Under the pieces are notes generated by a model. That model made no database searches and had not been told where the DNA came from. It saw nothing but the letters and a program-made list of their open reading frames with translations. Positions 9,969 through 26,213 of a stretch of DNA of 42,491 nt are shown here, in pieces. The stretch comes from Rikenella sp. (GTDB lineage Bacteria; Bacteroidota; Bacteroidia; Bacteroidales; Rikenellaceae), in assembly GCA_029054535.1 (NCBI GenBank), contig JAIDFC010000031.1:1-42491 (forward strand), in the 5' to 3' direction. Position numbers and translations under genes: made by a program. Numbering within the stretch: position 1 is the first letter of the stretch; every line of letters begins with the position of its first letter.

Positions 9969-10802
9969 TTATAACTTATCTTGTAGATACCGGTTAAAAA
10001 TGTCGCGATTCACTTGCCTACGCTCCCTATCGAACACCCAGCCATATTTATTGAAATAATAGACAATCGATTTTACATGAACCCACAATAGTTTAAGATT
10101 ACGATAAGATTCTTTATTATGAGCATGTACGATTGTAATATCGGGGAAAAAACGAGTTGTCCAACGATCCGAAGTGTAGATCCGCCGCGAGAGGTCTAGG
10201 TCTTCGCCATACATAAAGATGCGATCATCGAACAGTCCAAGCTCTCGTAATGTTTCCGTACGCAGAAACATGAAACATCCGGAACAAAACGGAACATCCA
10301 TCTCTCGGTCGTATCCGCTATCTCGCATCTCGAAACAGCGGTTGCGCTTTGCGGTGGAAGGCAAGAAACCCAGGAATCGTCGCCCGATCAAATCCATCGG
10401 CGTGGGCAATCGCTTACACAGGTATTGCAATCGCCCCTCCGGATAAATCACACGAGGCATCAGCCATCCGACCTCTGGATGATTGTCCATATATTCACAT
10501 AAGGTCTGAATGTCCTGTGATTGAAATTCGATGTCTGGATTAAGCACGATATGATATTCGGCACCGATCTCCAAAGCTTGCCGAATGGCGATGTTGTGGG
10601 CTGCTCCATATCCGACATTTCCTTGTCCGTGTATGTATTCGATTTTTGGGGATAAACCTCGTACGAGGTCGCCCAAAATTGGTTCGGACGAGTTATCGAC
10701 CACATAAATACGGTCGACCGCAGAGTCCACAGTACAGGCTATAACGGTCCGCAGTTGTTCCGGATCGGTCTGGTAGGTTACTATACTAGAGGTAATTCTC
10801 AT
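9969..10802 (-). CDS. Glycosyltransferase family 2 (WbbL-like putative rhamnosyltransferase)
   Basis: SIVTY, VVDNSS, NVGYGAAHN, LNPD, SGCFMFLR and FMYGEDLDLSRR motifs. ATG 10802 overlaps the upstream TGA. Confidence 0.9.
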   Translation of the reverse strand: MRITSSIVTYQTDPEQLRTVIACTVDSAVDRIYVVDNSSEPILGDLVRGLSPKIEYIHGQGNVGYGAAHNIAIRQALEIGAEYHIVLNPDIEFQSQDIQTLCEYMDNHPEVGWLMPRVIYPEGRLQYLCKRLPTPMDLIGRRFLGFLPSTAKRNRCFEMRDSGYDREMDVPFCSGCFMFLRTETLRELGLFDDRIFMYGEDLDLSRRIYTSDRWTTRFFPDITIVHAHNKESYRNLKLLWVHVKSIVYYFNKYGWVFDRERRQVNRDIFNRYLQDKL

Positions 10803-11395
10803 ATCCGGCACCATGATTGTAAAGTTCGATCATAGTATTTCACCGAACAAGCAGGTTGCCCGACAGCGATAGTTTCCGCCGGTATATCTTTCGTAACGAC
10901 CGAGTTGGCTCCGACAATCGCACCGTTTCCGATGGTTACACCAGGTAATACAACAACTCCTTCACCAATCCATACATTATCGCCTATTCGGACAGAAGCA
11001 ATACGATAAGGCCGTTGAATAGGAGGAATGTTCGGATCCGTATCGTCCGCTGTACCTTTGTAACAACCGTGCGAGTTGTCCGAAATGTAGATATGTCCGG
11101 CCATCAGAACATTATTCCCAATCGTAACCTCGTGCATGGCACAGATATGCACATAATCGTTCAATTGCACTCGATTACCAAGATGCAAGGTTTTTGTCCG
11201 TCCATCAGGTGAAAACGCTTCCAATCGACATCCTACGCCGGTGGTCAAGTTTTTTCCCAGATCAATATAACGTTTCCCTCGAATATCGAACGGAAAACGA
11301 ATGAGTCGGGCCTGACGACACAACAATTTGGTACGCAGGAGCCACCAGGCCAAACGTAATTTCGCGATGAAACTATATGAGTTCTTTATTTGCAT
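10799..11395 (-). CDS. Hexapeptide-repeat (LbH) polysaccharide O-acetyltransferase, WbbJ-like
   Basis: ISDNSHG and VRIGDNVWIGEGVVVLPGVTIGNGAIVGANSVVTKDIP hexapeptide repeats. Confidence 0.9.
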   Translation of the reverse strand: MQIKNSYSFIAKLRLAWWLLRTKLLCRQARLIRFPFDIRGKRYIDLGKNLTTGVGCRLEAFSPDGRTKTLHLGNRVQLNDYVHICAMHEVTIGNNVLMAGHIYISDNSHGCYKGTADDTDPNIPPIQRPYRIASVRIGDNVWIGEGVVVLPGVTIGNGAIVGANSVVTKDIPAETIAVGQPACSVKYYDRTLQSWCRI

Positions 11396-12201
11396 AATTT
11401 TCTGTATCGGGATATGATCCACCGTCGGATAAATTTAGCGATGGAGAAACTAACGGCAAACAGATAATACCCCAAAGATATATACTTGAACTTATAAGCA
11501 GTATGTATATTATACAGTTCGCCTTGTTCCATTTTGAGCAAATTGCCGGACAGTCCGCTCTCACCCCACCGAGCCTTATCAGTAATGGGTTCTGCTACAT
11601 TTTTCTGCATAAAAACAGCATGGCAGAGATAACTAACATTATTGAAAAAGAAACCTTCCTCGGCATATCGGAGTTCCTCATTGAACATGCCTGCTTTTTC
11701 GATTACATGGTGGCGAAAAATAACAGTCGGAGGCGAAAAATAATTTTTGGACACTTGTGCCCGAATAGTAATTCGAGTAGTTTCCCCTAACCGAATCAGA
11801 GAACCTTTCTGAAAATTATCAGATCCATAACCACACCCGAGCAGGTCCACTTCCGGATGTGCTGCCATGTATTCCATTTGGAGCGCAATTTTTCCCGGCA
11901 ACCATCGGTCATCCGAATCGTTAAAGGCGATGTATTCACCTTGAGCAACCCGCAAACCTGCATTACGCGCTGCTGCAGCACCCCCATTTCGTTGCCGAAT
12001 CAGCCGAATCTGCTTCTTGTACGGCGATTTGTCCAAGTAGTCTTGCACACAGCCAACCGAGTCATCCATTGACCCGTCGTCCACCAAAAGCAGTTCCCAG
12101 GAGTATGGATTCCCAGCACATTCACGGACCACAGAATCGACAGACTCCTCTACGGTGGTCGCTGAATTATAGATGGGAATAATTATTGATATGTCAAACA
12201 T
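11386..12201 (-). CDS. Glycosyltransferase family 2
   Basis: ISIIIPIYNS, VDDGSMD, NGGAAAARNAG and FNDSDD motifs. Confidence 0.92.
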   Translation of the reverse strand: MFDISIIIPIYNSATTVEESVDSVVRECAGNPYSWELLLVDDGSMDDSVGCVQDYLDKSPYKKQIRLIRQRNGGAAAARNAGLRVAQGEYIAFNDSDDRWLPGKIALQMEYMAAHPEVDLLGCGYGSDNFQKGSLIRLGETTRITIRAQVSKNYFSPPTVIFRHHVIEKAGMFNEELRYAEEGFFFNNVSYLCHAVFMQKNVAEPITDKARWGESGLSGNLLKMEQGELYNIHTAYKFKYISLGYYLFAVSFSIAKFIRRWIISRYRKLCK

Positions 12202-13289
12202 TATCCGAAAACGGTTTTATAAGGTACATAAAGGTCGTAATAACCACCGGTCGTAACAGTGTACAACCGAAGAGCAATATACGCGAAAGATACCAGAATA
12301 GCAAACAAGCGTAACGGACGACCATTAATCGATCGAATAATATACGGAAGTATAATGATCTGCAAGATATCGAACGAATAACCCAACCGAGCCAAACCTG
12401 CACTGATGGTGATAGTCATCAAAAATATAACCGCTCCCAACCAATACAAATTCAAATATCCCCGAAATTCCGGATACTTTCTTTCGATACGTTTAACTAC
12501 AATAAGGGCTACAACAATCAATAAAAGTTTACTGAAAAAAGCTTTGGCAATAATAATCGGCATGGATTGGCTTAGCCCAAAAGTCTCACCACGCAATTCA
12601 CCAGTATAAGCATCGATTTTCATCTGGATTGCCCCTCCGACTAAAGAACCGAACGATTGCATGATTGCATCGGCTACACCGGCAAGTCCGATAGCTACTA
12701 ATACTCCGAGAATCATGACCCACGCCGATATACGCCACTGATAAACCCAATAAGCTAACAAAAATATAATCGAAGAGCGATGAAACAGCGAGGCACTGAA
12801 CAAACAAATGACAAATGGCCAAAATCTTCGATCTCGAATAAAAAGAATCGAATAAAGCAAAATAGCACCCGCTATAGTCTGCCTTACGAAAAAGACACCT
12901 GCATAATTAATTCCAAACCAAAATAATAATGAAAAAATCGGATAAGGACTTAATCGCCAAATTGCCGTACTTTGAAACAAGAAAATAATCACTGCACAAA
13001 AGAATAACATCACTGTATATTCAGTTGTGATGGATTTAGTCAATCCAGCCAAAAAAGTATATCCGATTTCAAAGTTACTTTCCGGCATCCAAGTGTTAGA
13101 AGGAATCGACTGAAAAAAGGTAAGATACGCAGTCCAATCGGTACCTCGTTCCCACCGTAAAAACGACATGGCAAACAGCCCAAAGCAAAGCATGACATAA
13201 AGTTTCAGTACATCATGTCGCTTAAGGCCGTACAATTCGAGAAAACTATACAGTGCAATAATCAAGAATATGCCATAGTAAAATAACAT
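12201..13289 (-). CDS. wzy: EpsG-family polysaccharide polymerase (Wzy)
   Basis: Highly hydrophobic; LRWERGTDW..Y, FEIGY, VRQTIA, LFHRSS and C-terminal YVPYKT motifs. TAATG coupling at 13289. Confidence 0.8.
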   Translation of the reverse strand: MLFYYGIFLIIALYSFLELYGLKRHDVLKLYVMLCFGLFAMSFLRWERGTDWTAYLTFFQSIPSNTWMPESNFEIGYTFLAGLTKSITTEYTVMLFFCAVIIFLFQSTAIWRLSPYPIFSLLFWFGINYAGVFFVRQTIAGAILLYSILFIRDRRFWPFVICLFSASLFHRSSIIFLLAYWVYQWRISAWVMILGVLVAIGLAGVADAIMQSFGSLVGGAIQMKIDAYTGELRGETFGLSQSMPIIIAKAFFSKLLLIVVALIVVKRIERKYPEFRGYLNLYWLGAVIFLMTITISAGLARLGYSFDILQIIILPYIIRSINGRPLRLFAILVSFAYIALRLYTVTTGGYYDLYVPYKTVFG

Positions 13290-14461
13290 TACAACCAATT
13301 TATGGTACTTAACGCTGTTTTCAACTCTGCGCATAAGACCTCGGGGCTCATCTTATGGCGCAATTCGTCGAAATCAATCGCTGAACATTGTAACTCGCCT
13401 TGTCCGAGCTGTTCAATAAGATGAAGCAAGTGCGATGTATCCTCTGCCAAGAATCCAAAATTTCCATATTTATTGAATAAATACGAAAAATAATCATTCC
13501 GCAGCGAAACAATTGGCCGGGCCTTATCTACTGCATCCATTACAGCACCGCTGGCAATCATCCTGTAACTATCTGTCGGATAAAGAAACAATATATAATC
13601 AAGCCGTTCGATACGCTCCCGAAATTCTTCGTCTTCCAACGGAGCTATACCTTTATTGCAAGGTAAATCCACCCCGAAACGTTCCAACGGCTCAATATCG
13701 GCAAAAATACGACCTGTAACTGTAAGTTTTACCTTTTTCATAGCCTGAAGCCTCTCTGCCAACACACATAAAGTATCATATCCTTTAGCCTCGGTCAATA
13801 CGCCTACGGTTCCGATTTGCAACGGTTTATTCACTTCAACTCTCGGCCTTGTCGAACCAAAAATATAACTGTGATCGACCGAAATAAACCGTTCAGCCAA
13901 CTCCGGACTCACAGTTTGGCGAATATGGAATAAAATCGAATCTCCCATTACGACAAAATAAAGGCGTGATTTACGTTTAGAGGCCAAGAAGAACCTGACT
14001 GCTATTTTTCGTTGTAATTTAACGAAAAATCCACCCCAATTCTTCTTATCCAAAATGAATTCCATCTCGCCATGACAACAAATCAATACTCGCCGCTGGA
14101 ATATTCGACATAACCAATCCACGGCCAACAGAGAAAAAAGATTGTTGTAGTTGAATAACAACAACTTTTCCGCTCCGGCACACAAAACAATACGGATATT
14201 CTGGAACGCACTTAATAGAAGGCGCAATATGTTATTTATACGAGAAAATCCTCCCCCCCAAACCCATAAAGATTTATGATGAATCCGTGATCGATCGATA
14301 GAACACCGTTCCAACAGTTGATCCACCCGCTTCCGACTACTGCAACCACTATGGTATTCCACTCGATCATATACCAAAGCACACATCGTCAAAAGCGATG
14401 CGTTGAATTGTTCATGTATGGTGTGGTGCGAATAGGTGTCTATATACCGTATCGTTTTCAT
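13289..14461 (-). CDS. Putative GT-B glycosyltransferase (divergent)
   Basis: Operon position; GTVGVLTEAKG and YPTDSYRMIASGAVMDA..PIV segments resemble the GT-B C-terminal nucleotide-binding region. Confidence 0.65.
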   Translation of the reverse strand: MKTIRYIDTYSHHTIHEQFNASLLTMCALVYDRVEYHSGCSSRKRVDQLLERCSIDRSRIHHKSLWVWGGGFSRINNILRLLLSAFQNIRIVLCAGAEKLLLFNYNNLFSLLAVDWLCRIFQRRVLICCHGEMEFILDKKNWGGFFVKLQRKIAVRFFLASKRKSRLYFVVMGDSILFHIRQTVSPELAERFISVDHSYIFGSTRPRVEVNKPLQIGTVGVLTEAKGYDTLCVLAERLQAMKKVKLTVTGRIFADIEPLERFGVDLPCNKGIAPLEDEEFRERIERLDYILFLYPTDSYRMIASGAVMDAVDKARPIVSLRNDYFSYLFNKYGNFGFLAEDTSHLLHLIEQLGQGELQCSAIDFDELRHKMSPEVLCAELKTALSTINWL

Positions 14462-15351
14462 TAATCCGCGAATCTTTTACCTTTTTTGAGACGGTAACCC
14501 CACCGAAAAACAAAATTAGGCAACAAACTAATTATCAGGTGTTTGAATGAACGGCTTCCATAATTAACCACCATCGTTCGACACACATAGCAGCCGTATC
14601 CTTGAGCGACCACAGTCAAATTGAATGGCACGTGTTCGCACATCGCCTCAAACAAACGACTGCGGTGATTAGGTTGCGCACGATAATTGTGATCTTTAAT
14701 CACACCCCATTTATATACCCCGACCCCTCCAAAAGCGGATAAACACGAGACATACTCTTGGTTTCGGATTCGGCGTGTGATACGTTTGCTTTCAAAAAAC
14801 AATTCATCTTGCTTCTGATCCGGTTTATTTTCACATCCTTCAGGCACGTAGGCGTACAGATCAAAAAAATAAGGGAATTTCGAACAATAATAACGATTCC
14901 CATTGGCAAATAACCCTCCCCAATCGGATGGAGCTTTTTCGATCGAAGTAACAATCCCCTCCACCGAGAAATCCTGAACATCCACATCCACTACAATCAA
15001 ATAGTCCGGCTCCCAATCTAACGACCGCACATAATCCATGTACATATTCCGATAACAGGCCATTTTCTCAATGCGATGCAATGAAGTAGCCGGATTCTTA
15101 TTCTCTGTCGAAACCTGGGGAATCGTTACCGTACCAAAATCATTTATCACTGCCTCAACTCCCGGACTCCGTATCGCCCACTGTTTCAATGTCTCTTTCG
15201 TATCGTCTTTACTATCGTTCTCGATCACCACAACTTGAGACCGGACAAATCGACTCCGCAAAGATTCGATACGCGGGATATTGCGAATCAATGATTCATT
15301 GCAATCTCGTGCTAATGCGGCGATAACAATACTTTTCTCAATCATTAACAT
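14461..15351 (-). CDS. Putative GT-A glycosyltransferase, CAP59/GT69-like
   Basis: ALARDC, IENDSKDDT, RIEKMACYRN, VVDVDV (DxD), FDLYAY, SAFGGVGVYK and CEHVPFN motifs. Start is 15351 or 15345. Confidence 0.6.
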   Translation of the reverse strand: MLMIEKSIVIAALARDCNESLIRNIPRIESLRSRFVRSQVVVIENDSKDDTKETLKQWAIRSPGVEAVINDFGTVTIPQVSTENKNPATSLHRIEKMACYRNMYMDYVRSLDWEPDYLIVVDVDVQDFSVEGIVTSIEKAPSDWGGLFANGNRYYCSKFPYFFDLYAYVPEGCENKPDQKQDELFFESKRITRRIRNQEYVSCLSAFGGVGVYKWGVIKDHNYRAQPNHRSRLFEAMCEHVPFNLTVVAQGYGCYVCRTMVVNYGSRSFKHLIISLLPNFVFRWGYRLKKGKRFAD

Positions 15352-15417: not shown

Positions 15418-16656
15418 TCAATCTTTGGGAAACTTCTTAATTAGGAACCGCTGATTCTCATAACGAGTCAACTCTGTCAGATTATTGAGCAATGCCATGT
15501 AGTACCGAATGCCGAACGTCTTCTTCACCAGACATAACAATTGTCGGAGCAAGATTACAAATCTTCCTTTCTTTGCCGTCTCACCGGGAGAAAAAGTCTT
15601 AAAAGCAGAACTCTTAATCCCACTCAATAATTTATTGGTTTGTAACAATCGATATATACGACTCTCTACAGCAAACGGATTAGGATCAGCAACTTTTTGT
15701 TCTAAAGAACGATAGATCCGTCGATGAATGGGCATAATATTTTCACCATTCTCAAACGAATTAAATGAATAGCATAATTTACTAAATTTATCATATCCAT
15801 TTCGGTATTCTGCCACCACATATTCATCGATCAACGGCTTGAATGACGGAAATTGTTCAATACCATACTTAGAATGCCTACGGTTGAGTACGGTAGGATT
15901 GAACGGGTCGAAGCCCGAAAAGTGGAAGAATAACAGCGGGAACAGTTCTTTCGATTCCGTATTCCGGATCATATATGTCCCCTCTGCTGTGATCTCCAAT
16001 TCCCGTTCGTGCAGGTTCCATATGGCAGGATTGATTCCCATATGATGGGTAATGTGTACATCGTTCGGGAAAAAACCAGGAACAAAATCAAGCCATTTCT
16101 GGTCTACATGCAATCCATCTATCGGATCAGCATAACATTTATTTTCCAGTCGATTACACCACCATTCGACGATTTTCCGCCCTACCTCATCGTTTTTTAT
16201 AGCCCCAAAACCTAAGTTGTAAATCCCTACCCACAATAATTCTTCTTCGGGTACGGAACCAGTATAGTCAATCTGAATATTACAATAATGCGGACTCAAC
16301 ACGATCGATTTAGCTTCAAGCATCGAAAAAACTGGTGTCAGGTCTGCCATGACATACATGTCCGGATCCAGATATATTACCCGATCATATCCGGCCTTGA
16401 ACAATTTAGCAAAACAAAATGGTTTGATCGAAGTTGAAAACTCAATTACACTATACTTAAAAGCCATTTGCCGCCAAGCCGGAATCCACTCCTCGTCCAG
16501 TTCGACCACCGAATCGGGCACTTCGGGTGAGTCTTTCAAGTCGGAGATGAACAGAAAGAAATCGACGTCCGGATTGTGCCGACAGACAGTCTCTTGGAGG
16601 GTCAATGCCTGCGCCAGATAATTTTTGGCGCAGATGGTAAATATCGCGTTTTTCAT
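15418..16656 (-). CDS. Putative glycosyltransferase (GT8-like GT-A fold)
   Basis: FTICAKNYL, YLDPD (DxD), GIYNLGF, DQKWLD and FFHFSG motifs. Confidence 0.75.
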   Translation of the reverse strand: MKNAIFTICAKNYLAQALTLQETVCRHNPDVDFFLFISDLKDSPEVPDSVVELDEEWIPAWRQMAFKYSVIEFSTSIKPFCFAKLFKAGYDRVIYLDPDMYVMADLTPVFSMLEAKSIVLSPHYCNIQIDYTGSVPEEELLWVGIYNLGFGAIKNDEVGRKIVEWWCNRLENKCYADPIDGLHVDQKWLDFVPGFFPNDVHITHHMGINPAIWNLHERELEITAEGTYMIRNTESKELFPLLFFHFSGFDPFNPTVLNRRHSKYGIEQFPSFKPLIDEYVVAEYRNGYDKFSKLCYSFNSFENGENIMPIHRRIYRSLEQKVADPNPFAVESRIYRLLQTNKLLSGIKSSAFKTFSPGETAKKGRFVILLRQLLCLVKKTFGIRYYMALLNNLTELTRYENQRFLIKKFPKD

Positions 16657-17489
16657 AGACTGCGTTGAGGTGTTTTTTTCCGCAAACCGTCATAAAAGCC
16701 CAAAATAATGGCTTTGAGTTTTTTCCATTTATTCTGTTCGCCCAAGATGATTTTTGGAATTCCTCGGATCAAAAAAGTGTGTACGAAAAAATCCTTTTGA
16801 GCAAATAATCGAGGATATTCTTTCCACATAATAACGAAATTCCGTGTTATGTGATAACACCGAAATGCCGAATAGTTAAGCGTATGGAATCCCCATCGTG
16901 TTTTCGTCAGATTTCCATATTGCTGTTGAAGTTCTATTTCGGGGATGATATATGTATTATATCCCTGTTCCTTAGCCCGATAACAGATCTCTATGTCCAC
17001 GGCATCAATGCCGAAATCCTCGCGAAATCCGTTTATCTCAAGTATTTTCTGCACATCGTACACGCTGCCGGAAGTAATGACATCCGGATAAAGAAACGGT
17101 TCGCAATCAGCCGGGACCAAATGATTCGGATTGACTCCGAATATCGCGCTCCGAGGGTTGGAATCTATCAGTTTTTCGACAATTGGAACCAGGTTCGTAA
17201 GTCGATTTGCAAAACGGCTATCCTGGTCCAAGGTCAATAGATGCGTATAGCCATTGCAGGCACACCATTCGAGGACTTTATTCAACGGTTTTGCGATAAG
17301 CAAATTTTCCCCGGTTCCCATGACCAGCACATCGTTCGGTTCGGTCAAACGCTCTAAGCTAGGTGTCCCTCCCGGAGTATTATCCCAAACGATCAATTGT
17401 CCGACACATTGTCGATAACTCTCCAAATTGTCGGCAAGTTCATTGAGATCGGGGTTATAAATTATAACAACAGCGGCTAATCTCATCAC
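16653..17489 (-). CDS. Glycosyltransferase family 2, rhamnosyltransferase-like
   Basis: VVIIYNP, VWDNT, LTLDQDS, VITSGS and GFREDFGIDAVDIE motifs typical of RfbF-type rhamnosyltransferases. Confidence 0.85.
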   Translation of the reverse strand: MMRLAAVVIIYNPDLNELADNLESYRQCVGQLIVWDNTPGGTPSLERLTEPNDVLVMGTGENLLIAKPLNKVLEWCACNGYTHLLTLDQDSRFANRLTNLVPIVEKLIDSNPRSAIFGVNPNHLVPADCEPFLYPDVITSGSVYDVQKILEINGFREDFGIDAVDIEICYRAKEQGYNTYIIPEIELQQQYGNLTKTRWGFHTLNYSAFRCYHITRNFVIMWKEYPRLFAQKDFFVHTFLIRGIPKIILGEQNKWKKLKAIILGFYDGLRKKTPQRSL

Positions 17490-18355
17490 AAAACACTGTA
17501 TAATACGGCGTTCAGAAGTTTAACCGAAGATTTTTCCGTTCTGAGTTTATGCCGAATAAACATACTTGTTAAGAACTCTGCTATAAACCCTTCGCCTCGC
17601 GCAAAAACTTTTTCCCTCATCGGATCGATCAACAGTTCTTTGTCCACTAATGATTTTTCGTGAGTCTGCAAAACATCAAATAGCATCGAAGCATACCGTT
17701 CGAATACATCTCGTCGCATGATGGTCATGTTTCCGTAGTACGATTCGTTGGAATGCAGGGAGGCTATGAAATCGGGAAAATAGTCGGGATATTTTCGGGC
17801 AATGATTTCTTGGACGAGTTCCATGATGACTTCGCCAAAGATATTTTTGAATAATATACCAAATTCAACGCCACTATGCTTTACAGGCTTAAGAGCATAT
17901 ACGGTATATTTCCCTCGAGCAATACTTCGGCTGATGTCGGTAGAAAATTCATGGGCCAAACGGAGGAAATCATTTTCACGATCGACATAGTGTGCGTTCC
18001 AATCCGTGAGCCAACCTCCGATATGTCGAAACGGCATCAGATAGATTGCCAAATAATATTTGATCTTCTCTATAAAATTTCGTCGTGTTTTCGGTCTTTT
18101 CATCGAAAATACTCTTCGATAATGGCACAGACCGATATAATCCGAATCCCGGTCGTTTTTCCAGGCCCAATAAGCGGCTGTCATTTCACAATAAAGCGGA
18201 TTTTTCCGACTGATATTGTCTCCGGTATCGTCGCCAATCGTTCCCGGAATATCGACTTCGGACAACGCTTTGCCTACGTGGATCGGACGATAGACCGAAC
18301 CGCTCACGATGGGCGCTGGCTTATGGTAAGCCACGTAGATAGTAACCTTGGGCAT
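17486..18355 (-). CDS. DUF4422 protein (WciB-like putative galactofuranosyltransferase)
   Basis: YVAYHK, PIHVG and DDTGDNISRKNPLYCEMTAAYWAWKN..DYIGLCHYRR motifs; directly downstream of glf. Confidence 0.88.
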   Translation of the reverse strand: MPKVTIYVAYHKPAPIVSGSVYRPIHVGKALSEVDIPGTIGDDTGDNISRKNPLYCEMTAAYWAWKNDRDSDYIGLCHYRRVFSMKRPKTRRNFIEKIKYYLAIYLMPFRHIGGWLTDWNAHYVDRENDFLRLAHEFSTDISRSIARGKYTVYALKPVKHSGVEFGILFKNIFGEVIMELVQEIIARKYPDYFPDFIASLHSNESYYGNMTIMRRDVFERYASMLFDVLQTHEKSLVDKELLIDPMREKVFARGEGFIAEFLTSMFIRHKLRTEKSSVKLLNAVLYSVL

Positions 18356-18363
18356 GACAATGC

Positions 18364-19461
18364 TTAAATGGTGGATTTGAGCTGCAACACCTGTTTAATC
18401 ACATGGTGCATGTCGAAATATTGATATTGGGCTAACCGACCTCCAAAAATAACATTTTCCTCCCCTGCAGCCAAATCGCTGTATTGTTTGTAGAGTCGAT
18501 CGTTCCGGGTATCGTTGATCGGATAGTAAGGTTCGGCCCCTTCGCACCATTCTCCGGGATATTCGCGGGTGATCACCGTATGAGGTTGAGTTCCGAACTC
18601 GAAATGTTTATGTTCGATGATTCGGGTGTAAGGGATTTCACGTTCCGTATAATTCACCACGGCATTTCCCTGAAAATTCTCGGTTTCCAGCCACTCCTCC
18701 TCGAACCGCAAGGTACGATAAGCCAGTTTTCCGAACCGGTATCCGTAATATTCGTCGATCATACCGGTAAACACCACCTTGTCGGCCAAAGTATCCCAGT
18801 CGCTTTTCCCGGCGAGATAATCGACTCCGAGCCGTACATCCGCCTTGGCGAGCATCTTTTCAATCAATACGTTATAACCTCCGACAGGAATCCCTTGGTA
18901 GGCGTCGTTGAAGTAGTTATTGTCAAAAGTCAAACGCACCGGCAGACGTTTGATGATAAACGGCGGCAGTTCGGTACAAGCACGTCCCCATTGTTTCTCG
19001 GTATAACCTTTGATCAGTTTTTCATAAATATCGCGACCGACCAACGAAATCGCTTGTTCTTCCAAATTTACGGGTGTTCTACCTGCCATTTCAGCGCGTT
19101 GTTCCTCGATCTTGGCCACTGCCTGAGCCGGAGTCCTCACCCCCCACATCTGGTAGAAAGTGTTCATATTGAAAGGCAGATTATAGAGTCTGTCTTTGTA
19201 AATTGCCACCGGCGAATTGATGTAACAGTTGAATTCCGCCAACGAATTGACATATTCCCACACTTCACGATCCGAGGTGTGAAAGATATGGGCTCCGTAT
19301 TGATGTACGTGAATGCCTTCCGCATTTCGACAATAAAGATTCCCGCCAATATGTTCGCGACGATCGATCACTAAGCACCGTTTCTCTTTTAATCCCGCTT
19401 GATGGGCAAAACAGGCTCCGTACAAGCCGGCGCCGACGATCAAATAATCGTATTGCTTCAT
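18364..19461 (-). CDS. glf: UDP-galactopyranose mutase
   Basis: YDYLIVGAGLYG, YGAHIFHT, GYTEKQWG, TRIIEHKHF, EPYYP and GGRLAQYQYFDM motifs. Confidence 0.97.
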   Translation of the reverse strand: MKQYDYLIVGAGLYGACFAHQAGLKEKRCLVIDRREHIGGNLYCRNAEGIHVHQYGAHIFHTSDREVWEYVNSLAEFNCYINSPVAIYKDRLYNLPFNMNTFYQMWGVRTPAQAVAKIEEQRAEMAGRTPVNLEEQAISLVGRDIYEKLIKGYTEKQWGRACTELPPFIIKRLPVRLTFDNNYFNDAYQGIPVGGYNVLIEKMLAKADVRLGVDYLAGKSDWDTLADKVVFTGMIDEYYGYRFGKLAYRTLRFEEEWLETENFQGNAVVNYTEREIPYTRIIEHKHFEFGTQPHTVITREYPGEWCEGAEPYYPINDTRNDRLYKQYSDLAAGEENVIFGGRLAQYQYFDMHHVIKQVLQLKSTI

Positions 19462-19463
19462 TC

Positions 19464-20192
19464 TTAAATCTTACTATACGTACTACCTGGAAATAAGGCA
19501 AGTATTTCATCCACTCGCGCACGATCCGAAACTGCGAACTCCGTTTGCTGTACCCCCAAGCGAATCCCTTTACCGATCCCTAAAGTATGGTATTGCAAAA
19601 ACTCAGGAGCCGGGAGCAAATACTTGGCCTGCAACTCGCGTAGTCGTTCTATATTTTCTTTTTGATCGGTCATCCCCGCAATCAGCACCATACGCAAAGT
19701 TGCAATCTTGGTACGAATATATGATAAGTTTTCTTCAAAATCAACCGTTCTATTATATCGAGCATGCAAAAACGGGTGCCCTACAAGTTTAATGTCTACC
19801 AAATAAAAGTCTACATACGGATCGATCTGTCGAATCGCGGGAAAAGGAACATAGAGCGAACTTTCAATACATATACCGATCTCTGCCTCCCGAAGTCGTC
19901 GGAGCAACGGAAGTAAACTTTCGGTTTGTAACAGCGGCTCCCCTCCGGAGAATGTTACTCCTCCGATCCGACCGTAATAGGCTCGGTCGGCAACCAATTT
20001 ATCGAACAATTCGTCGGTCGAATATCGTATAGCTACAGGCGTTCCCTCCTTGAATCGATCGGGCATGCCTAATTTAGTCTCGGGATTGCAACACCAAGGA
20101 CAGTCGAGCGAACACCCTTTCAAAAATACAGTGGTACGTATCCCCGGCCCGTCCTGTATACACAACCGCTGAATGGCAGTAACCTCAAGCAT
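19464..20192 (-). CDS. Glycyl-radical enzyme activating protein (radical SAM)
   Basis: DGPGIRTTVFLKGCSLDCPWCCNPE (CxxxCxxC), GGVTFSGGEPLLQ, DIK and YHTLG motifs. No auxiliary ferredoxin insertion. Confidence 0.93.
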   Translation of the reverse strand: MLEVTAIQRLCIQDGPGIRTTVFLKGCSLDCPWCCNPETKLGMPDRFKEGTPVAIRYSTDELFDKLVADRAYYGRIGGVTFSGGEPLLQTESLLPLLRRLREAEIGICIESSLYVPFPAIRQIDPYVDFYLVDIKLVGHPFLHARYNRTVDFEENLSYIRTKIATLRMVLIAGMTDQKENIERLRELQAKYLLPAPEFLQYHTLGIGKGIRLGVQQTEFAVSDRARVDEILALFPGSTYSKI

Positions 20193-20206
20193 GATTTTTC
20201 GGCATT

Positions 20207-22255
20207 TTAAGCCGCACTGTTCATCGCGCGTTCAATCAACATATCCTTATATGCATCGGGTAGATCATTAAAATAAGCGCTGAAACCCCACACCCGAACA
20301 ACCAAATGAGGATACAAAGAAGGGTCTGCTTTAGCCGCAATGAGTTGATCGACATTCAAGACATTGAGTTGCAGCTCATAGACTCCTTTCTGAAAAGCCA
20401 CCCGGAGAATCTGGACAAATTTTTCTCTATGCCGTACAAACTGATCCGAAAGAATAAAATCGACTACATTTCCGTTGATTTTATTACCCGAATAGTCCAG
20501 TTGTCCTGCGAAATCAATAATTTCGGCGAAATCAATCTCTTTGGAAACCGGCGAAATATGAGTAGCAAACGGTTCTCCATTACGCCGACCGTCCGGCGTG
20601 GCCGGCGTAATGGTTCCAGCAGCCAGATAAGCCGGAGAACTGAACCCGACTTTTGCTCGAGAACCATTGATCGTCGTTCGTTCGATCTTTCGAGCGACAA
20701 ACTCCATAATACGCCGAGAAAGAGCCAATACATCCGGATCCGAAAGACCAAATTTTTTGCTACCTAACCATAATCGTTCCCGTAACGATTCATATCCGAC
20801 ATAATTCTTCCGTAATGCTCGACATAATTCTCCATACGAGATCGTAACTCCCGACCCGAACACTTCCGTACTCACATTAAGCAACGAATTAACCGCATTT
20901 GGTAATCCGGTCGTTAAAAAACCGTGATAATTATATTTGGCTCCTCCGCAAGCAACATCGGCCCTATTCACCAGACAATCCTCCATCCAAAGTGATTGCA
21001 AAGGGGCACGATCAAATTCGATATGTTCTGACTTAACAGCAATACGGTCAATTTCACCGCCCAAGGCATCAAAAAATGCAGCCTCGAATGCCTCATACGA
21101 ACCGTATTCTTGGCTTTCGTCCATAATTCGCGCCACAATCAACGGCAAATTGATACTATCCGTACAATTGTTCTGATCAAACGATTTGCCAATAATCAAC
21201 GGTTCCCAGCAAGCCGAAGTTCCGAAATCGACCGTATCGGCTGCTTCATAACCAAACTGTTCCATCAATCCCCTGATTTTAGGATCATTAGCTAATAGTG
21301 GCGAACCATTCCCGCGCGACAGACAAGCAATGGCCTTAGCCCAAATCCCATCACTCGTCTGTTCTGAAACACGCAAAATCAATTTCGGATCCGGAACATT
21401 CAGTTCTGCAACAACCTCCAGAAACAAATGCGTCAAGTCATTCTCCACATAATCCCCCCCCCTATCTATCCCCGACAGAAGAATCACCTGTCCCGTATCG
21501 CCAATCATTCCTTCACTCTTGAAAGCTGTATGTGTTCCCAAAATTGAAACGAACTGACGAATCATCTCCTTAGCCCGCTCCCGATTCAACCGACCAGCCT
21601 CAACATCAGCCCGATAGTAAGGTTCCAAGATCACATCCAAACGTCCCAATCCGATATGACGTTGACGATTCATCCACATTAAAGCATTGAAAAAAAGAAT
21701 TTTTTGGAGTGCTTCATCCAACGACTCAGGAACCGTATCCATTATACGATCCAGGTAGACACGAATACGCCTGTCATGCACACCATACCATCCCAAAGCC
21801 CTTCTGCGAATACAATCTATGGCATCGATGGTCAAGACCATCGAACAACTGAAATCATCCGTAGCCTCCTGCATTTTTCGACGAACAGCCCACAGGTCCA
21901 TAGTCAACACTTTGGCATAATCCTGCGTCAAACTCACCACGGCTTGCGTTCCAGCCGGAATAATACGAATTACTTTCGTATCGAGCGGATAAAAATAAGG
22001 TTCTGTAATCATATGCGTAAACCGAATCCGCCGAGCGATGATAGCAAACTGACGAGCGGCAGCCCGATTCGGTTCCAATTCTCTCTCCGGATAAACCAAA
22101 CAACGTGTACAAGCATATCGAAACACATCCATCACTCTGCGAACCATTCCCCTTCCGGAACGATGAAATGAATAGTCCCGCACGATCAATTCACGCACAG
22201 CTCTTAATCGCATAGGGACCAACGGCTTAATCACCTTTTTGAGCAATCGTTTCAT
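20207..22255 (-). CDS. Glycyl radical enzyme (PFL-like superfamily, uncharacterised class)
   Basis: EALQ, GRLD..L.PYY, SACWEP Cys loop, ATPDGRRNGEP, QLNVL and LVVRVWGFSAYF glycyl-radical motif. Confidence 0.92.
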   Translation of the reverse strand: MKRLLKKVIKPLVPMRLRAVRELIVRDYSFHRSGRGMVRRVMDVFRYACTRCLVYPERELEPNRAAARQFAIIARRIRFTHMITEPYFYPLDTKVIRIIPAGTQAVVSLTQDYAKVLTMDLWAVRRKMQEATDDFSCSMVLTIDAIDCIRRRALGWYGVHDRRIRVYLDRIMDTVPESLDEALQKILFFNALMWMNRQRHIGLGRLDVILEPYYRADVEAGRLNRERAKEMIRQFVSILGTHTAFKSEGMIGDTGQVILLSGIDRGGDYVENDLTHLFLEVVAELNVPDPKLILRVSEQTSDGIWAKAIACLSRGNGSPLLANDPKIRGLMEQFGYEAADTVDFGTSACWEPLIIGKSFDQNNCTDSINLPLIVARIMDESQEYGSYEAFEAAFFDALGGEIDRIAVKSEHIEFDRAPLQSLWMEDCLVNRADVACGGAKYNYHGFLTTGLPNAVNSLLNVSTEVFGSGVTISYGELCRALRKNYVGYESLRERLWLGSKKFGLSDPDVLALSRRIMEFVARKIERTTINGSRAKVGFSSPAYLAAGTITPATPDGRRNGEPFATHISPVSKEIDFAEIIDFAGQLDYSGNKINGNVVDFILSDQFVRHREKFVQILRVAFQKGVYELQLNVLNVDQLIAAKADPSLYPHLVVRVWGFSAYFNDLPDAYKDMLIERAMNSAA

Positions 22256-23697
22256 CTCAAGTGTAATTTTGTATACAACTTATCCCGGATTTCCATTGCC
22301 ATCGGATCGCGAAATACAATAAGTTCCAACAGGATGAACGTCATAGCTGAACAAATTGTTATTCCGGTGAGCGACCCGATCGGAGAGTCGGACCATTGAA
22401 TAAACAAATATCCATACAGGAACATCGGAAGAGAGGCAATTATTGATTGGATCAATGGCCGATAATTCGGACGTATTTGAGGTACTAACCTATACGCAAA
22501 CCACATCACCATTCCTGTAACAATCGTTTCAGCTACTACGGAAGCCCATGAAGCCCCGACAGCTCCCCAACGCGGAATAAAAAACAGATTAAGCAAGAAA
22601 TTACTCCCCGTACCGAAAAGAACGGCATATAAAAACCATTTTTCGTTATCAGTAGGGACCAATATCTGTGGTCCGTAAAAATTATTGATTCCGATCAATA
22701 TCACAAGTAATGAAACAATCATCATCGACGGAACAGCTCCCACAAATTCGGCTCCGAAAAAAAACGGAACAAAAGGCGAAGAAATCACAACCAAACCAAT
22801 AGTAATCGGCGGAGCCAGAAGCGACATAAACGAAAATGACTTATCGGTTACCCGCCGCAACTCGGATATATCATTTTCCTTATACAAATGTGCGATCCGA
22901 GGAATCGCCACCATGGCCGAAGCAGTTACAACAGGCAATAACAATCGACTGATCTTGATCGCTGACGAATAGTACCCCACTTCGGTATATGTCGATAAAA
23001 AACCCAGCATCAACACATCGAGCATCGTATAAATGCTTATAGCCAGCGAAGAAAGCGAAAGAACAATCACCGGTTTCAAATGGCGTTTGATTTTTAATCT
23101 TCGCCAGCGTAACCGTACATCGTGCCGCAACATATAGACAAATGTCCATACCTGTGCCAACCCGTTCGTTAACGCATTAAGGACCAAATAAAGCAACAAA
23201 TCATTCGGCGTACGAATCCAAACAAATAAAATCATCAATCCCACCGCCTTGACTATCAGATTCCGAACAGCCGATATTTTGAGATTTTCACGGCCGGTAT
23301 AATACCAATCGACATTAAACGATGAAAACAGCAATCCTACACCAGCAGCCATCAAAAAAGGCCATTCCTGGCGCAAAGTAGGAACAACAGCAATCGATAC
23401 AACGTATCCCGCCGTAAAGATAAGCGAACTGACCAGCATAATATTGAATAACTCACTGACTACATAATCACGTTGAATCGGTGCATTTCGTAATTTTCCA
23501 ATCTCCCTCGTTCCATAGATCGGAATCCCCAAATAAATAAACAATGTAAAATATGAAGCATAAGTTAACGCAAAATTAACCACACCAATATTTTCTACAC
23601 CGAACACACGTGAGACATAAGGAACGGTAACAATAGGGACCGCAACGTTCAATACATTGATCAGTATATTGTAGATGACGTTTTTAGTTGCCGACAT
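22252..23697 (-). CDS. wzx: Polysaccharide flippase (Wzx)
   Basis: KNVIYN, PYVSRVFG, GIPIYGTREI, SIYTMLDVLMLG, VGYYS and IPRWGAVGASWASV motifs; multi-TM protein. Confidence 0.93.
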   Translation of the reverse strand: MSATKNVIYNILINVLNVAVPIVTVPYVSRVFGVENIGVVNFALTYASYFTLFIYLGIPIYGTREIGKLRNAPIQRDYVVSELFNIMLVSSLIFTAGYVVSIAVVPTLRQEWPFLMAAGVGLLFSSFNVDWYYTGRENLKISAVRNLIVKAVGLMILFVWIRTPNDLLLYLVLNALTNGLAQVWTFVYMLRHDVRLRWRRLKIKRHLKPVIVLSLSSLAISIYTMLDVLMLGFLSTYTEVGYYSSAIKISRLLLPVVTASAMVAIPRIAHLYKENDISELRRVTDKSFSFMSLLAPPITIGLVVISSPFVPFFFGAEFVGAVPSMMIVSLLVILIGINNFYGPQILVPTDNEKWFLYAVLFGTGSNFLLNLFFIPRWGAVGASWASVVAETIVTGMVMWFAYRLVPQIRPNYRPLIQSIIASLPMFLYGYLFIQWSDSPIGSLTGITICSAMTFILLELIVFRDPMAMEIRDKLYTKLHLR

Positions 23698-23773: not shown

Positions 23774-23964
23774 AGGATTTCATTTCAATCTACTTGAATT
23801 TGAGAATTCAGAGATTTTAACATTTACCGAATAGACATTCAGTTATGCATTTCAGAAGCGAATCTCTATTTTTTAGTGGCAAAAATCTGATTAAAACAAT
23901 CGGATCGGCCGGGAAACAGTACCGTTTTTCGTATATTCGGGGCATGGAAATCGACCGAAATACG

Positions 23965-26148
23965 ATGAAAAAAAGACTCTTACTGCTCGGAATGGCTCTT
24001 GTCGCGACTACCAGCGTCGCTTGCGGGGCCGCCAAAACGCGAGCCAACTCCGGAACGAAGCCGCAGCCCGTGCGGGTGGCCTGCGTCGGGAACAGCATCA
24101 CGTACGGGATGCTCGTCGAAGACCGTGAACGGAACTGCTACCCCGCTGTGCTGGGTCGGATGCTCGGAGCGGGATACGACGTGCGGAACTTCGGCCACAG
24201 CGGCGCCACACTCCTCAACCGGGGGCACAACCCATATACCAAGACCCCGGAGTATGCCGATGCCGTTGCTTTTCGACCCGATATCGCCGTAATCCACCTC
24301 GGGATCAACGATACCGATCCGCGGAACTGGCCCAATTATCGGGACGAGTTCATTCCGGATTACACCGCGCTGATCGACAGCTTTCGACGGGCCAATCCGA
24401 CGGTGAAGATCTACGTTTGCCGGATGACCCCGATCCCGCATCGGCATCGGCGGTTCAAAGCCGGGACACGCGAGTGGCACCGCCAGATCCAGGAGGCCAT
24501 CGAACGGGTGGCTGCGGCTCAGGGAACCGGACTGATCGATCTCGAGCCTGTTTTGAAAGACCGGCCCGAGCTGTTGCCCGACGCCGTACATCCGAACGTC
24601 GAGGGGGCGAGGCTGCTGGCCGAGCGGATCTACAGCGCCCTGACGGGCGATTACGGGGGACTGCGGATGTCGCCGATCTACACCGACCGTATGGTGTTGC
24701 AACGCGGATTCGAGACCCGGATCGGCGGCGTGGCCGATGCGGGTCGGACGGTGAGCGTGGCGGTTTCCGACAGCGTGCGGCGGAGGCGGAACGGAGGGGC
24801 GAAACCACTCGGCAAGATTTATGCTTCCGGGACTGCGTCGGTGGGCGAGGACGGTCGGTGGGAAGTGCGATTGCCGTTGAAAGAGGTGTTGCTCTCGGGC
24901 GTGCTGACCGTCGCGACCGAAGACACGACGGCCGTCTATCGGGACGTGGCGGTGGGGGATGTGTGGATGGCCAGCGGACAGTCCAATATGTCGTGGCCGG
25001 TGGCGAACGCGGCCGAGCGGGCCGAAGCGAGACCGAATCCGAACATTCGACTCTTCCGGGCGAATCCGACCTTCGCCGACGAACGAGGAGAGCTGGACAG
25101 CACGGAACTCGCCCGGCTCAACCGACTGGACTATATCCGCAACCCGGCCGGTTGGGTGCTGGGGAGCGATCGGAAAGCGATGGAAGAATTTTCGGCCGTA
25201 GCCTGGTTTTTCGGCCAGATGCTGACCGATTCGTTGATGCCCGGCGTGCCGATCGGCCTGATCGAGACCTCGTTGGGAGGCGCCCCGGCCGAAGCGTTCG
25301 TGGCCCGTCGACGGTTGGAAGACGACCCGACCCTGGTGGACGTGCTCTACGACTGGCGGACGAACGAGATGGCGCAGCCGTGGGTTCGAGACGTGATTCA
25401 GGGCAACTTGAAAAAGGTCGAGAATCCGTTGCAGCGGCACTTTTTCGAACCCGCTTACTTGTACGAGAGTCGGATCGCTCCGCTGGCCTCGGGGTACGAT
25501 GCGCTGGGGGTGATCTGGTACCAGGGGGAGAGCAATGCCCACAACGTGGAGTTGCACGAGCGGCTGTTTCCGGCCGTCGTGGAGAGCTTTCGCGAAGCGT
25601 TCGGACGTCCGTCGATGGCATTTCACTTCATACAGCTGTCGTCGCACGACCGTCCCAGCTGGCCGCACTTCCGCGACAGCCAGCGGCGGCTGGCCGAGGC
25701 ACTGCCTCGGGTCGAGATGGTGGTGAGTTCGGATCTGGGGGACTCGACCGACGTCCACCCGCGGCGAAAGAAACCCGTCGGCGAGCGACTGGCGTTATCG
25801 ATTCCGCTCGGCAGAGCGATTCCTAAATATCCCGACTTCGAGTTTGCCGCCCGAAGCAACGATACGGTCTATTGTTTGGCCTCTTCAAGGCTTCGCACGT
25901 CGGACGGCGAGGCGCCGCGGACTTTCGAGCTGGCGGGCGAGGACGGCGTTTTCCACCCGGCACAAGCGCAAATCATCAACGGAGATGCCGAAATCGCCGT
26001 TTGGTCCGATCTTGTCAAAGAGCCTCGATGGGTGCGCTACGGGTGGCAACCGTTCACACGGGCCAACCTCTGCGGACGCTGGAAACGAGGCCACTGGATG
26101 CCGATTTCGACTTTCCAACTGCCGGTCGTCCGATCCTCGGGGCGGTAA
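23965..26148 (+). CDS. Sialate O-acetylesterase-like protein (N-terminal SGNH/GDSL domain plus SASA domain), exported
   Basis: ACVGNSITYG, HLGIND and DAVHPN motifs; then GDVWMASGQSNM, IWYQGESN and DVHP. Signal peptide MKKRLLLLGMALVATTSVAC. Alternative start at 23944. Confidence 0.88.
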   Translation: MKKRLLLLGMALVATTSVACGAAKTRANSGTKPQPVRVACVGNSITYGMLVEDRERNCYPAVLGRMLGAGYDVRNFGHSGATLLNRGHNPYTKTPEYADAVAFRPDIAVIHLGINDTDPRNWPNYRDEFIPDYTALIDSFRRANPTVKIYVCRMTPIPHRHRRFKAGTREWHRQIQEAIERVAAAQGTGLIDLEPVLKDRPELLPDAVHPNVEGARLLAERIYSALTGDYGGLRMSPIYTDRMVLQRGFETRIGGVADAGRTVSVAVSDSVRRRRNGGAKPLGKIYASGTASVGEDGRWEVRLPLKEVLLSGVLTVATEDTTAVYRDVAVGDVWMASGQSNMSWPVANAAERAEARPNPNIRLFRANPTFADERGELDSTELARLNRLDYIRNPAGWVLGSDRKAMEEFSAVAWFFGQMLTDSLMPGVPIGLIETSLGGAPAEAFVARRRLEDDPTLVDVLYDWRTNEMAQPWVRDVIQGNLKKVENPLQRHFFEPAYLYESRIAPLASGYDALGVIWYQGESNAHNVELHERLFPAVVESFREAFGRPSMAFHFIQLSSHDRPSWPHFRDSQRRLAEALPRVEMVVSSDLGDSTDVHPRRKKPVGERLALSIPLGRAIPKYPDFEFAARSNDTVYCLASSRLRTSDGEAPRTFELAGEDGVFHPAQAQIINGDAEIAVWSDLVKEPRWVRYGWQPFTRANLCGRWKRGHWMPISTFQLPVVRSSGR

Positions 26149-26164
26149 AGCGGACCGAAACGAC

Positions 26165-26172
26165 TATCTTTG
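26165..26172 (+). promoter_or_regulatory. Bacteroidota -7 element (TATCTTTG)
   Basis: Consensus TAnnTTTG, 41 nt upstream of the GH92 ATG. Confidence 0.65.
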
Positions 26173-26213
26173 CGACACATAATCCAAAACTCACACACAA
26201 CACACAGAGCAGT

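What the first reader, a model, noticed from the sequence alone, without database searches (positions are those of the whole stretch)
19464..22255. Glycyl radical enzyme and activase embedded in a surface-polysaccharide biosynthesis operon
Seen: the order is wzx > GRE > activase > glf > glycosyltransferases > wzy. The wzx stop overlaps the GRE start (ATGA, 22252-22255), there are 14 bp to the activase and 2 bp from the activase to glf, and all share the same low-GC composition, so they appear native to the operon. The GRE has the RVWG glycyl motif and a single-Cys loop SACWEP, is only 682 aa, and begins with a basic amphipathic tail (MKRLLKKVIKPLVP). Established: characterised GREs are mostly catabolic or ribonucleotide reductases of roughly 750-850 aa. 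PFL has a Cys-Cys pair, while CxE loops (GCVEP) typify eliminases/dehydratases. I know of no characterised GRE in glycan biosynthesis. Inference: anaerobic radical tailoring of an NDP-sugar or repeat unit (deoxygenation, C-C cleavage or ring contraction), or supply of an unusual substituent. Apart from glf, the locus has no other sugar-synthesis enzymes but does have several atypical transferases.
Basis: partly seen in the sequence, partly recalled or inferred. Interest (0 to 1): 0.87.

Follow-up and report, generated by a model that had tools for sequence, protein, structure and literature searches.

The report
Radical enzyme in surface-glycan assembly
An oxygen-sensitive radical enzyme and its activator sit inside cell-surface sugar-polymer gene clusters of many gut anaerobes, next to or fused with the sugar-transfer and export genes, where it likely remodels a galactofuranose sugar, a job not described for this enzyme class.

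Summary
Observation confirmed. The 682-aa glycyl radical enzyme (GRE; Cys349-Trp-Glu351, Gly657) and its activase lie between wzx and glf. It belongs to an uncharacterised clade of about 670-aa GREs (194 sequences at 90% non-redundancy, catalytic residues invariant) in Bacteroidota, Bacillota, a spirochaete and a methanogen. Of 59 non-redundant loci with long flanks, 58 carry glycan genes, 46 wzx, 43 glf and 53 glf or a Galf-transferase-like gene. Controls: 0 of 20 sister-clade loci are glycan loci; 2 of 134 wzx-like hits in the window's order have glf nearby. Fifty longer family proteins are fusions, all to glycosyltransferases (41 GlfT1-like) or Wzx. The neighbouring Glf looks canonical and no redox partner is constant. 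So a biosynthetic role tied to galactofuranose is well supported; the reaction is inferred. Best guess: radical dehydration of the Galf C5-C6 diol on the lipid-linked repeat unit before flipping (about 0.4); action on UDP-Galf and epimerisation are close rivals. A June 2026 GRE review has no glycan role. This scan noted the same family earlier on another genome (e1-1097927).

The parts
22252..23697 (-). wzx, repeat-unit flippase (481 aa); its stop overlaps the GRE start (ATGA)
   Evidence: PF01943 E 2.5e-29; 25% identical to E. coli RfbX; overlap read
20207..22255 (-). Glycyl radical enzyme, 682 aa; Cys349-Trp350-Glu351 loop, Gly657 in RVWG, basic amphipathic N-terminal helix
   Evidence: PF02901, PF01228; AlphaFold2 model pLDDT 89.5, Z 33-39 to solved GRE eliminases and isomerases; conservation
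19464..20192 (-). Radical-SAM GRE activase, 242 aa, CxxxCxxC (C27, C31, C34), no auxiliary ferredoxin domain
   Evidence: PF04055, PF13353; TIGR02494 164 bits; alignment; 1 of 136 family activases has a ferredoxin-type motif
18364..19461 (-). glf, UDP-galactopyranose mutase, canonical-looking active site
   Evidence: TIGR00031 above cut-off; 60% identical to E. coli Glf; no column separates GRE-linked from control Glf
17486..18355 (-). DUF4422 glycosyltransferase, likely galactofuranosyltransferase
   Evidence: PF14393 E 1.7e-55; matches the N-terminal part of WbbM, PDB 6u4b, E 5.6e-32; the Galf-transferase role of that domain is recalled
16653..17489 (-). GT2 glycosyltransferase (rhamnosyltransferase-like, below cut-off)
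   Evidence: TIGR01556 99.7 bits
15418..16656 (-). GT8-like protein (weak)
   Evidence: PF01501 E 1.3e-4
14461..15351 (-). CAP59-like glycosyltransferase
   Evidence: PF11735 E 8e-7
13289..14461 (-). 390-aa ORF without a family match, probably a glycosyltransferase (inferred from context)
   Evidence: No Pfam or NCBIfam hit; 29% homologues in three other GRE glycan loci
12201..13334 (-). wzy-like polymerase (EpsG family)
   Evidence: PF14897 E 1.9e-47
11386..12201 (-). GT2 glycosyltransferase
   Evidence: PF00535 E 1.4e-30
10799..11422 (-). WbbJ-like O-acetyltransferase
   Evidence: NF007240 209 bits; 43% identical to E. coli WbbJ
9969..10814 (-). GT2 glycosyltransferase, last gene of the operon
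   Evidence: PF00535 E 7.9e-12

Best explanation
The gene pair encodes a glycyl radical enzyme and its activase that are built into Wzx/Wzy surface-glycan loci and likely modify a galactofuranose (Galf) residue of the lipid-linked repeat unit, most likely by radical dehydration of its side-chain C5-C6 diol, before Wzx flips the unit out. Steps: (1) Glf makes UDP-Galf (annotation shown, activity assumed); (2) a DUF4422, GlfT1-like or WbbI-like transferase adds Galf to the undecaprenyl-PP-linked unit (inferred from family); (3) the activase installs the radical on Gly657, relayed to Cys349 (follows from known GRE chemistry; residues shown); (4) the enzyme, held at the inner membrane face by its basic helix or by fusion to the transferase or flippase (fusions shown, location inferred), abstracts H from a Galf carbinol while Glu351 deprotonates it, and the neighbouring OH leaves as water, giving a 6-deoxy-5-keto or 5-deoxy-6-aldehyde furanose (inferred); (5) the modified unit is flipped and polymerised. 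My odds by layer: biosynthetic role in the glycan locus about 0.9, Galf as target about 0.7, lipid-linked rather than UDP-linked about 0.55, dehydration rather than epimerisation or another rearrangement about 0.55; these layers are not independent.
For: Context: 58 of 59 non-redundant loci with at least 4 kb on both sides carry glycan genes; activase 56, wzx 46, glf 43, a Galf-transferase-like gene 43, glf or such a gene 53. Controls: 0 of 20 sister-clade loci have wzx, glf, DUF4422 or WbbI; in the window's family glf is in 3 of 3 genomes with this GRE and 9 of 118 without; in 45 other genomes of the order 2 of 134 wzx-like hits have glf within 10 kb; in Clostridia samples DUF4422 is in 4 of 71 genomes and the GlfT1-like subfamily in 2 of 119 besides the centre genome, against 12 and 14 of 33 Bacillota GRE loci. 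Fusions: 50 of 51 long hits are family members, fused to a GlfT1-like GT2 (41), Wzx (6), GT8 (2) or another GT2 (1), none to Glf or a nucleotide-sugar enzyme. Tight coupling: 69 of 75 wzx-GRE and 117 of 125 GRE-activase junctions are within -60 to +50 bp. Chemistry: C349, W350, E351 and G657 are invariant in 194 sequences; CxE marks the eliminases and isomerases that act on a carbinol next to a leaving group, including vicinal diols and sugars (PMC13450708 sections 5.6, 5.7); the model matches those folds best. The basic N-terminus is a family trait (net charge +5 or more in 69 of 94 and 46 of 64, against 5 of 39 in the sister set). Linked Glf looks canonical, placing the GRE downstream of UDP-Galf. 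Sister-clade loci often lie next to galactosidase or arabinofuranosidase families (8 of 20).
Against: No activity, glycan structure, knockout or expression data. The His that acts as acid in glycerol dehydratase (His164, PMC13450708) aligns, through YbiW His165, with Ser108 (Asn or Ser in the family), so the usual acid is missing (sequence alignment, weak in this region). No constant reductase, so the carbonyl would stay in the polymer, and none of 14 listed papers points to such a residue in a polysaccharide (listings and abstract starts only). Six of 59 loci have neither glf nor a recognised Galf transferase in the flank, and L019 has no recognised glycan gene. glf is in 96 of 101 genomes of the family of G132, so finding glf elsewhere in 24 of 28 genomes says little for Clostridia. 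Wzx fusions can arise simply from the ATGA-type overlap. Invariant Lys246, Lys291 and near-invariant Lys535 would also suit a UDP-sugar. Related loci are not independent draws.
Confidence: 0.4

Rival explanations
1. The enzyme acts on the soluble donor UDP-Galf, just after Glf, and the modified sugar is then transferred by the adjacent or fused transferase.
For: glf is the commonest first gene after GRE-activase (16 of 59); invariant Lys246, Lys291, His566 could bind a diphosphate; UDP-Galf is the common factor across three unrelated transferase types; fusion to a GlfT1-like domain could channel a donor.
Against: No fusion to Glf among 50 fusions; fusions to Wzx and the basic helix point to the membrane; Lys291 is shared with the catabolic sister clade. 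Whether linked transferases are specialised for an altered donor could not be tested (too few controls).
Confidence: 0.22
2. The enzyme is a radical epimerase or isomerase of Galf, for example inverting the side-chain C5 to give L-altrofuranose, or opening or rearranging the ring in the manner of YbiW and PflD.
For: No constant redox partner, so a stable isomer is attractive; the dehydratase acid His is absent; a side-chain C5 radical can rotate, so one Cys could serve both faces, which would explain the need for the furanose (inference); CxE GRE sugar isomerases exist.
Against: No GRE epimerase is among the seven classes of the 2026 review; no second conserved active-site Cys is evident; invariant Glu351 fits elimination chemistry; epimerisation would give mixtures.
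Confidence: 0.2
3. The enzyme is a radical lyase that clears stalled Galf-containing lipid intermediates, or makes a small substituent (from a polyol or similar) for the polymer.
For: The sister clade sits with glycosidases under AraC or LacI regulators (12 of 20 loci); both clades lack about 70 residues before the first barrel strand relative to YbiW, which may open the site; some loci carry IspD, SDR and LicD genes.
Against: Substituent pathways vary between loci and are absent from this window; fusion to transferases and flippase fits assembly better than disposal.
Confidence: 0.12
4. The pair is a bystander insertion, or a pyruvate formate-lyase supplying acetyl-CoA to the O-acetyltransferases.
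For: Automatic names say formate C-acetyltransferase; acyltransferases occur in 20 of 59 loci; it is the only PFL-like gene found in this 80%-complete genome.
Against: No Cys-Cys pair; TIGR01255 scores 43 bits against a cut-off of 994; recurrence in glycan loci across five phyla and repeated fusion to glycan enzymes.
Confidence: 0.03

Closest known systems
GRE 1,2-eliminases (glycerol dehydratase 1R8W, propanediol dehydratase 5I2A/5I2G, CutC 5FAU, HypD 6VXC, HpfG/HpsG)
   Same: Fold (Z 33-39, rmsd about 2.4-2.5 A over about 625 residues), single-Cys CxE loop, C-terminal Gly loop, dedicated activase.
   Different: About 22-24% identity; all NCBIfam scores far below cut-offs; about 110-130 residues shorter; CWE and RVWG motifs; acid His position is Ser/Asn; activase lacks the ferredoxin domain; biosynthetic rather than catabolic context.
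GRE sugar isomerases YbiW (8ID7) and PflD (8ID0, 8YJO)
   Same: CxE loop, sugar substrates, redox-neutral chemistry (PMC13450708 section 5.7); Z 34-36; among the best sequence matches in the PDB.
   Different: They act on free anhydro-alditol phosphates with PTS and aldolase genes nearby; active-site positions differ (His165 to Ser/Asn, Asn383 to Lys291, Gly690 to His566); NF007437 134 bits against 1109.
Uncharacterised AACWEF / RxWGWS sister clade in Clostridia
   Same: Short (about 660 aa), CWE, GD.GQ, DPK and Asn363 motifs, short activase; nearest group in the tree.
   Different: No basic N-terminal helix; stand-alone two-gene units with AraC or LacI regulators and glycosidases; 0 of 20 in glycan loci. 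Its function is also unknown.
Galf-containing Wzx/Wzy loci such as E. coli K-12 O16 (rfbX-glf-wzy-wbbIJKL)
   Same: wzx and glf adjacent, WbbJ-like acetyltransferase, Galf transferases.
   Different: Here a GRE-activase pair is inserted between wzx and glf; no match in E. coli genomes by distant blastn.

Membership tests
PFL-like glycyl radical enzyme superfamily | Ten-stranded alpha/beta barrel GRE fold | tested here: met
   Model pLDDT 89.5, pTM 0.90; Z up to 39.3 to solved GREs; PF02901 above cut-off
PFL-like glycyl radical enzyme superfamily | C-terminal Gly loop and Cys loop | tested here: met
   G657 and C349 in 194 of 194 sequences; they align with YbiW G786 and C441
PFL-like glycyl radical enzyme superfamily | Cognate radical-SAM activase with CxxxCxxC | tested here: met
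   Adjacent gene; 56 of 59 loci; motif in 134 of 136
PFL-like glycyl radical enzyme superfamily | Glycyl radical formed on activation (EPR) | not testable with these tools
   Needs anaerobic biochemistry
GRE 1,2-eliminases | [quoted passage not shown] | tested here: met
   C349-W350-E351 invariant; criterion from PMC13450708
GRE 1,2-eliminases | General-acid His (glycerol dehydratase His164) for the leaving hydroxyl | tested here: inconclusive
GRE 1,2-eliminases | Net elimination of water, amine or sulfite | not testable with these tools
   No assay
Named equivalogs (CutC, HypD, HpfG, HpsG, PflD, HPAD, IAD) | Curated HMM cut-off | tested here: not met
   94-158 bits against cut-offs of 1000-1150; TIGR01774 214 against 678
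Pyruvate formate-lyase | Adjacent Cys-Cys pair (recalled) and TIGR01255 cut-off | tested here: not met
   Loop is SACWEP; 43 bits against 994
Class III ribonucleotide reductase | NrdD-type sequence and fold | tested here: not met
   No NrdD family hit; Z 20-21 against 33-39 for PFL-like GREs
GRE isomerases (YbiW, PflD, HplG) | CxE loop with isomeric product | tested here: inconclusive
   CxE met; pocket residues differ from YbiW and PflD; product not testable
Wzx/Wzy-dependent polysaccharide locus | Flippase, polymerase and glycosyltransferases in one operon | tested here: met
   no initiating phosphoglycosyltransferase was recognised in this operon

The most novel reading that the evidence does not exclude
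This clade is the first glycyl radical enzyme class dedicated to cell-surface glycan biosynthesis: a membrane-tethered radical tailoring step, coupled to the Galf transferase and the flippase, that converts galactofuranose in the repeat unit into an undescribed deoxy-carbonyl or epimeric furanose on the surface of gut and rumen anaerobes, making capsule chemistry depend on the absence of oxygen.
Probability: 0.6. Interest if true: 0.92.

Novelty: new variant of a known kind. Interest (0 to 1): 0.82.

Why it matters
Characterised PFL-like GREs are almost all catabolic; the June 2026 review lists seven classes and never uses the words polysaccharide or glycan. A GRE that edits a capsule or O-antigen would add an anabolic role and probably new sugar chemistry, and it predicts an unrecognised residue in surface glycans of commensals such as Rikenella microfusus, Parabacteroides distasonis and Muribaculum intestinale (named members), with possible effects on phage binding, glycosidase resistance and immune recognition. 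The proteins are now misnamed as formate acetyltransferase or hydroxyphenylacetate decarboxylase. Cultured hosts exist, so the question is directly testable.

Tried and rejected
Single-sequence scan of genome contigs found nothing; the alignment query worked. Altered-substrate Glf: rejected, no column separates 55 linked from 27 control Glf and the groups mix in the part of the tree displayed (20 of the control stretches came from GRE-carrying genomes and at least one, L185, is in a GRE locus). Dedicated reductase or dehydrogenase partner: none constant. Genome-level glf co-occurrence in Clostridia: uninformative. Test of specialised Galf transferases: too few unlinked controls. Expression: no RNA holder was listed. 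Search for a host with a known glycan structure: only distant hits in plasmids and phages and none in E. coli. ESM Atlas gave only generic PFL-like names. Promoter scans upstream of wzx gave no convincing site. Literature: ten searches, one a corrected repeat; none listed a paper on a GRE in glycan biosynthesis; subscription papers are mostly absent, and the WbbM paper was not held. No complex prediction was run: GRE plus Wzx exceeds the size limit and binding is not claimed.
Full report
OBSERVATION. The minus-strand operon 23697-9969 reads wzx, GRE, activase, glf, DUF4422, GT2, weak GT8, CAP59-like, unassigned 390 aa, EpsG-family wzy, GT2, WbbJ-like acetyltransferase, GT2. The ATGA overlap, the 14-bp gap and the 2-bp gap are as reported. 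The operon is a low-GC island (39-47% against 57.8% for the genome), and the GRE and activase match it. The genome (80% complete) has one PFL-like gene and one glf, both here. The closest named homologue is from Rikenella microfusus, 59% identical, with wzx, GRE and activase in the same order, then one extra gene, glf and DUF4422.

THE PROTEIN. The AlphaFold2 model (42-row alignment, pLDDT 89.5) has the PFL-like GRE fold, closest to eliminases and isomerases (Z 33-39), further from PFL (Z 27) and class III RNR (Z 21). No named equivalog cut-off is approached. One search gave 441 hits, the best 120 shown at 41-59% identity (self apart) and mostly about 670 aa. Among 194 sequences at 90% non-redundancy (from 257 aligned), C349, W350, E351, G657, K246, S247, D253, K291, N362, N363, S539, H566 and D599 are invariant down to 30% identity, which argues for one function. 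A FastTree tree of 188 sequences puts 118 of 119 motif-defined members plus 6 others in one clade (SH 0.99); the nearest group is an AACWEF/RxWGWS clade (support 0.51 for the pairing, 0.84 with one further sequence). Against E. coli YbiW, about 70 residues before the first barrel strand are missing in both clades, and His165 aligns with Ser/Asn108. The basic N-terminus is typical of this clade and not of the sister set. The activases lack the auxiliary ferredoxin domain (1 of 136 with the motif), as PFL and RNR activases do (PMC13450708 section 2.1).

NEIGHBOURHOODS. I fetched 67 genome loci and the best 80 of 180 metagenome loci. The genome loci are Clostridia 45, Bacteroidia 11, Bacilli 6, Spirochaetia 2, and one each of Mycoplasmatota, Erysipelotrichia and Methanobacteria. 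ORFs were clustered; 84 cluster representatives were labelled by Pfam and 23 proteins by NCBIfam, and local HMMs spread the labels. Dereplication at 90% left 102 loci; 43 were dropped for flanks under 4 kb. Of the 59 kept: activase 56, wzx 46, glf 43, DUF4422 19, GlfT1-like 20, WbbI-like 9, any of those three 43, glf or any of them 53, any glycan gene 58, SDR-type 18, UGD 6. At 50% dereplication the picture holds (20 of 20 glycan, 19 of 20 glf or Galf transferase). The GlfT1-like and WbbI-like labels are best hits below curated cut-offs. The GRE ORF is 600 aa or longer in 127 of 130 loci that are not cut by a contig end. The family is rare per genome: 3 of 121 in the window's family and 2 of 401 in Clostridia (a floor, as only two candidates per genome were scored).

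CONTROLS. Sister clade: 0 of 20 loci with wzx, glf, DUF4422 or WbbI. Of 97 neighbouring ORFs I scanned 61: AraC or LacI regulators in 12 loci, and GH2, GH36-type, GH4 or GH127 glycosidases in 8. A further GRE group in the window's family is not near wzx in 5 of 5 genomes. glf is in 9 of 118 family genomes without this GRE and 3 of 3 with it. In 45 other genomes of the order, one per family, 2 of 134 wzx-like hits have glf within 10 kb (my count; the hits include MOP transporters of other roles, and common gut families are under-represented). In Clostridia, DUF4422 (4 of 71) and the GlfT1-like subfamily (2 of 119 besides the centre) are scarce, but glf is near-universal in the family of G132 (96 of 101), which empties the 24-of-28 result for that group. 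Kin are not independent, so I give no P values.

FUSIONS. The 50%-representative search and a search for longer forms show fusions. Of 51 long hits, 50 carry the family motifs: 41 with an N-terminal GlfT1-like GT2, 6 with Wzx, 2 with GT8 and 1 with another GT2; one more Wzx fusion came. They form five groups at 50% identity. All partners handle the lipid-linked repeat unit; none is Glf or a nucleotide-sugar enzyme. Single fusions could be read-through artefacts, but the groups of 41 and 6 are diverse.

GLF. The window's Glf is 60% identical to E. coli Glf, and linked Glf proteins keep the same active-site columns as controls. The GRE therefore probably acts after UDP-Galf is made.

MECHANISM. 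In characterised CxE GREs the thiyl radical takes H from a carbinol carbon, the Glu binds or deprotonates that hydroxyl, and a neighbouring C-O, C-N or C-S bond breaks, giving an elimination product or an isomer with no redox partner (PMC13450708 sections 5.6, 5.7). Galf differs from Galp in carrying an open-chain C5-C6 diol that resembles glycerol or propanediol (established chemistry, recalled). That, the Galf linkage, the lack of a constant reductase, the basic helix and the fusion partners lead me to dehydration of that diol on the lipid-linked unit (0.4). Action on UDP-Galf (0.22) and epimerisation or rearrangement (0.2) remain close; a lyase or substituent supply (0.12) and a bystander or PFL role (0.03) are less likely. 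Shown: gene content, motifs, fold, context, fusions. Inferred: membrane location, substrate, reaction.

WHAT IS KNOWN. From PMC13450708 I saw the abstract, the outline, a term search and sections 2.1, 4.3, 5.1, 5.6, 5.7 and 7: seven GRE classes, with no occurrence of 'polysaccharide' or 'glycan' in the main text. From PMC7478625 I saw two passages, unrelated to this question. All other papers were seen as search listings with abstract starts. Ten searches listed no paper on a GRE in glycan biosynthesis; subscription journals and supplements were not seen, so a mention there cannot be excluded. The roles of DUF4422/WbbM, GlfT1 and WbbI as Galf transferases rest on family names and on recall.

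VERDICT. A real, well-supported finding: a member of the PFL-like GRE superfamily, of no named family, in a role not found in the literature searched. New variant of a known kind, interest 0.82; the chemistry is open and testable in cultured commensals.

Noticed in passing
L151:1492-3744(-), L152, L153:1102-3351(+), L154, L155; P0408: A group of about 750-aa GREs (motif GCWEA) in the window's family begins with a twin-arginine-like leader. An exported glycyl radical enzyme would be odd; an adjacent activase was seen only in L153, within short flanks. Not near wzx.
   Followed up: partly
L220-L239: Catabolic sister clade (AACWEF, RxWGWS, about 660 aa): two-gene GRE-activase units under AraC or LacI regulators, often beside galactosidase or arabinofuranosidase families; uncharacterised. 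L224 and L235 carry a second, different GRE.
   Followed up: partly
L023 (Methanobacterium sp. MAG) and L024, L053 (Breznakiella homolactica): The wzx-GRE-activase module occurs in an archaeal MAG, followed by a GlfT1-like gene, and twice in one spirochaete chromosome. Binning of the archaeal contig was not checked.
   Followed up: no
L030, L037: Two GRE copies about 9.5 kb apart in one glycan locus.
   Followed up: no
L001:12776-13822, L014:8800-9768, L002:13745-14794: Three recurring families without a clear Pfam match lie beside the GRE (clusters 16, 18 and 49, in 10, 9 and 4 loci); the first resembles GT2-like proteins by language-model features. Candidate new furanosyltransferases.
   Followed up: partly
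L019:9767-20792: The one long-flank locus with no recognised glycan gene: GRE, activase, a HAD-like 676-aa protein, unknown ORFs and a B12-binding radical SAM protein.
   Followed up: partly
window:8880-9911(+), 23845-28514(+): The low-GC operon is flanked by high-GC genes on the other strand: an Acyl_transf_3 acyltransferase converging on its end, and a GDSL/sialate O-acetylesterase and a GH92 upstream.
   Followed up: no
G143:C32:15253-15870 and G628:C5:34169-34789: glf matches lying in open frames of 646 and 697 aa, possibly Glf fusions.
   Followed up: no
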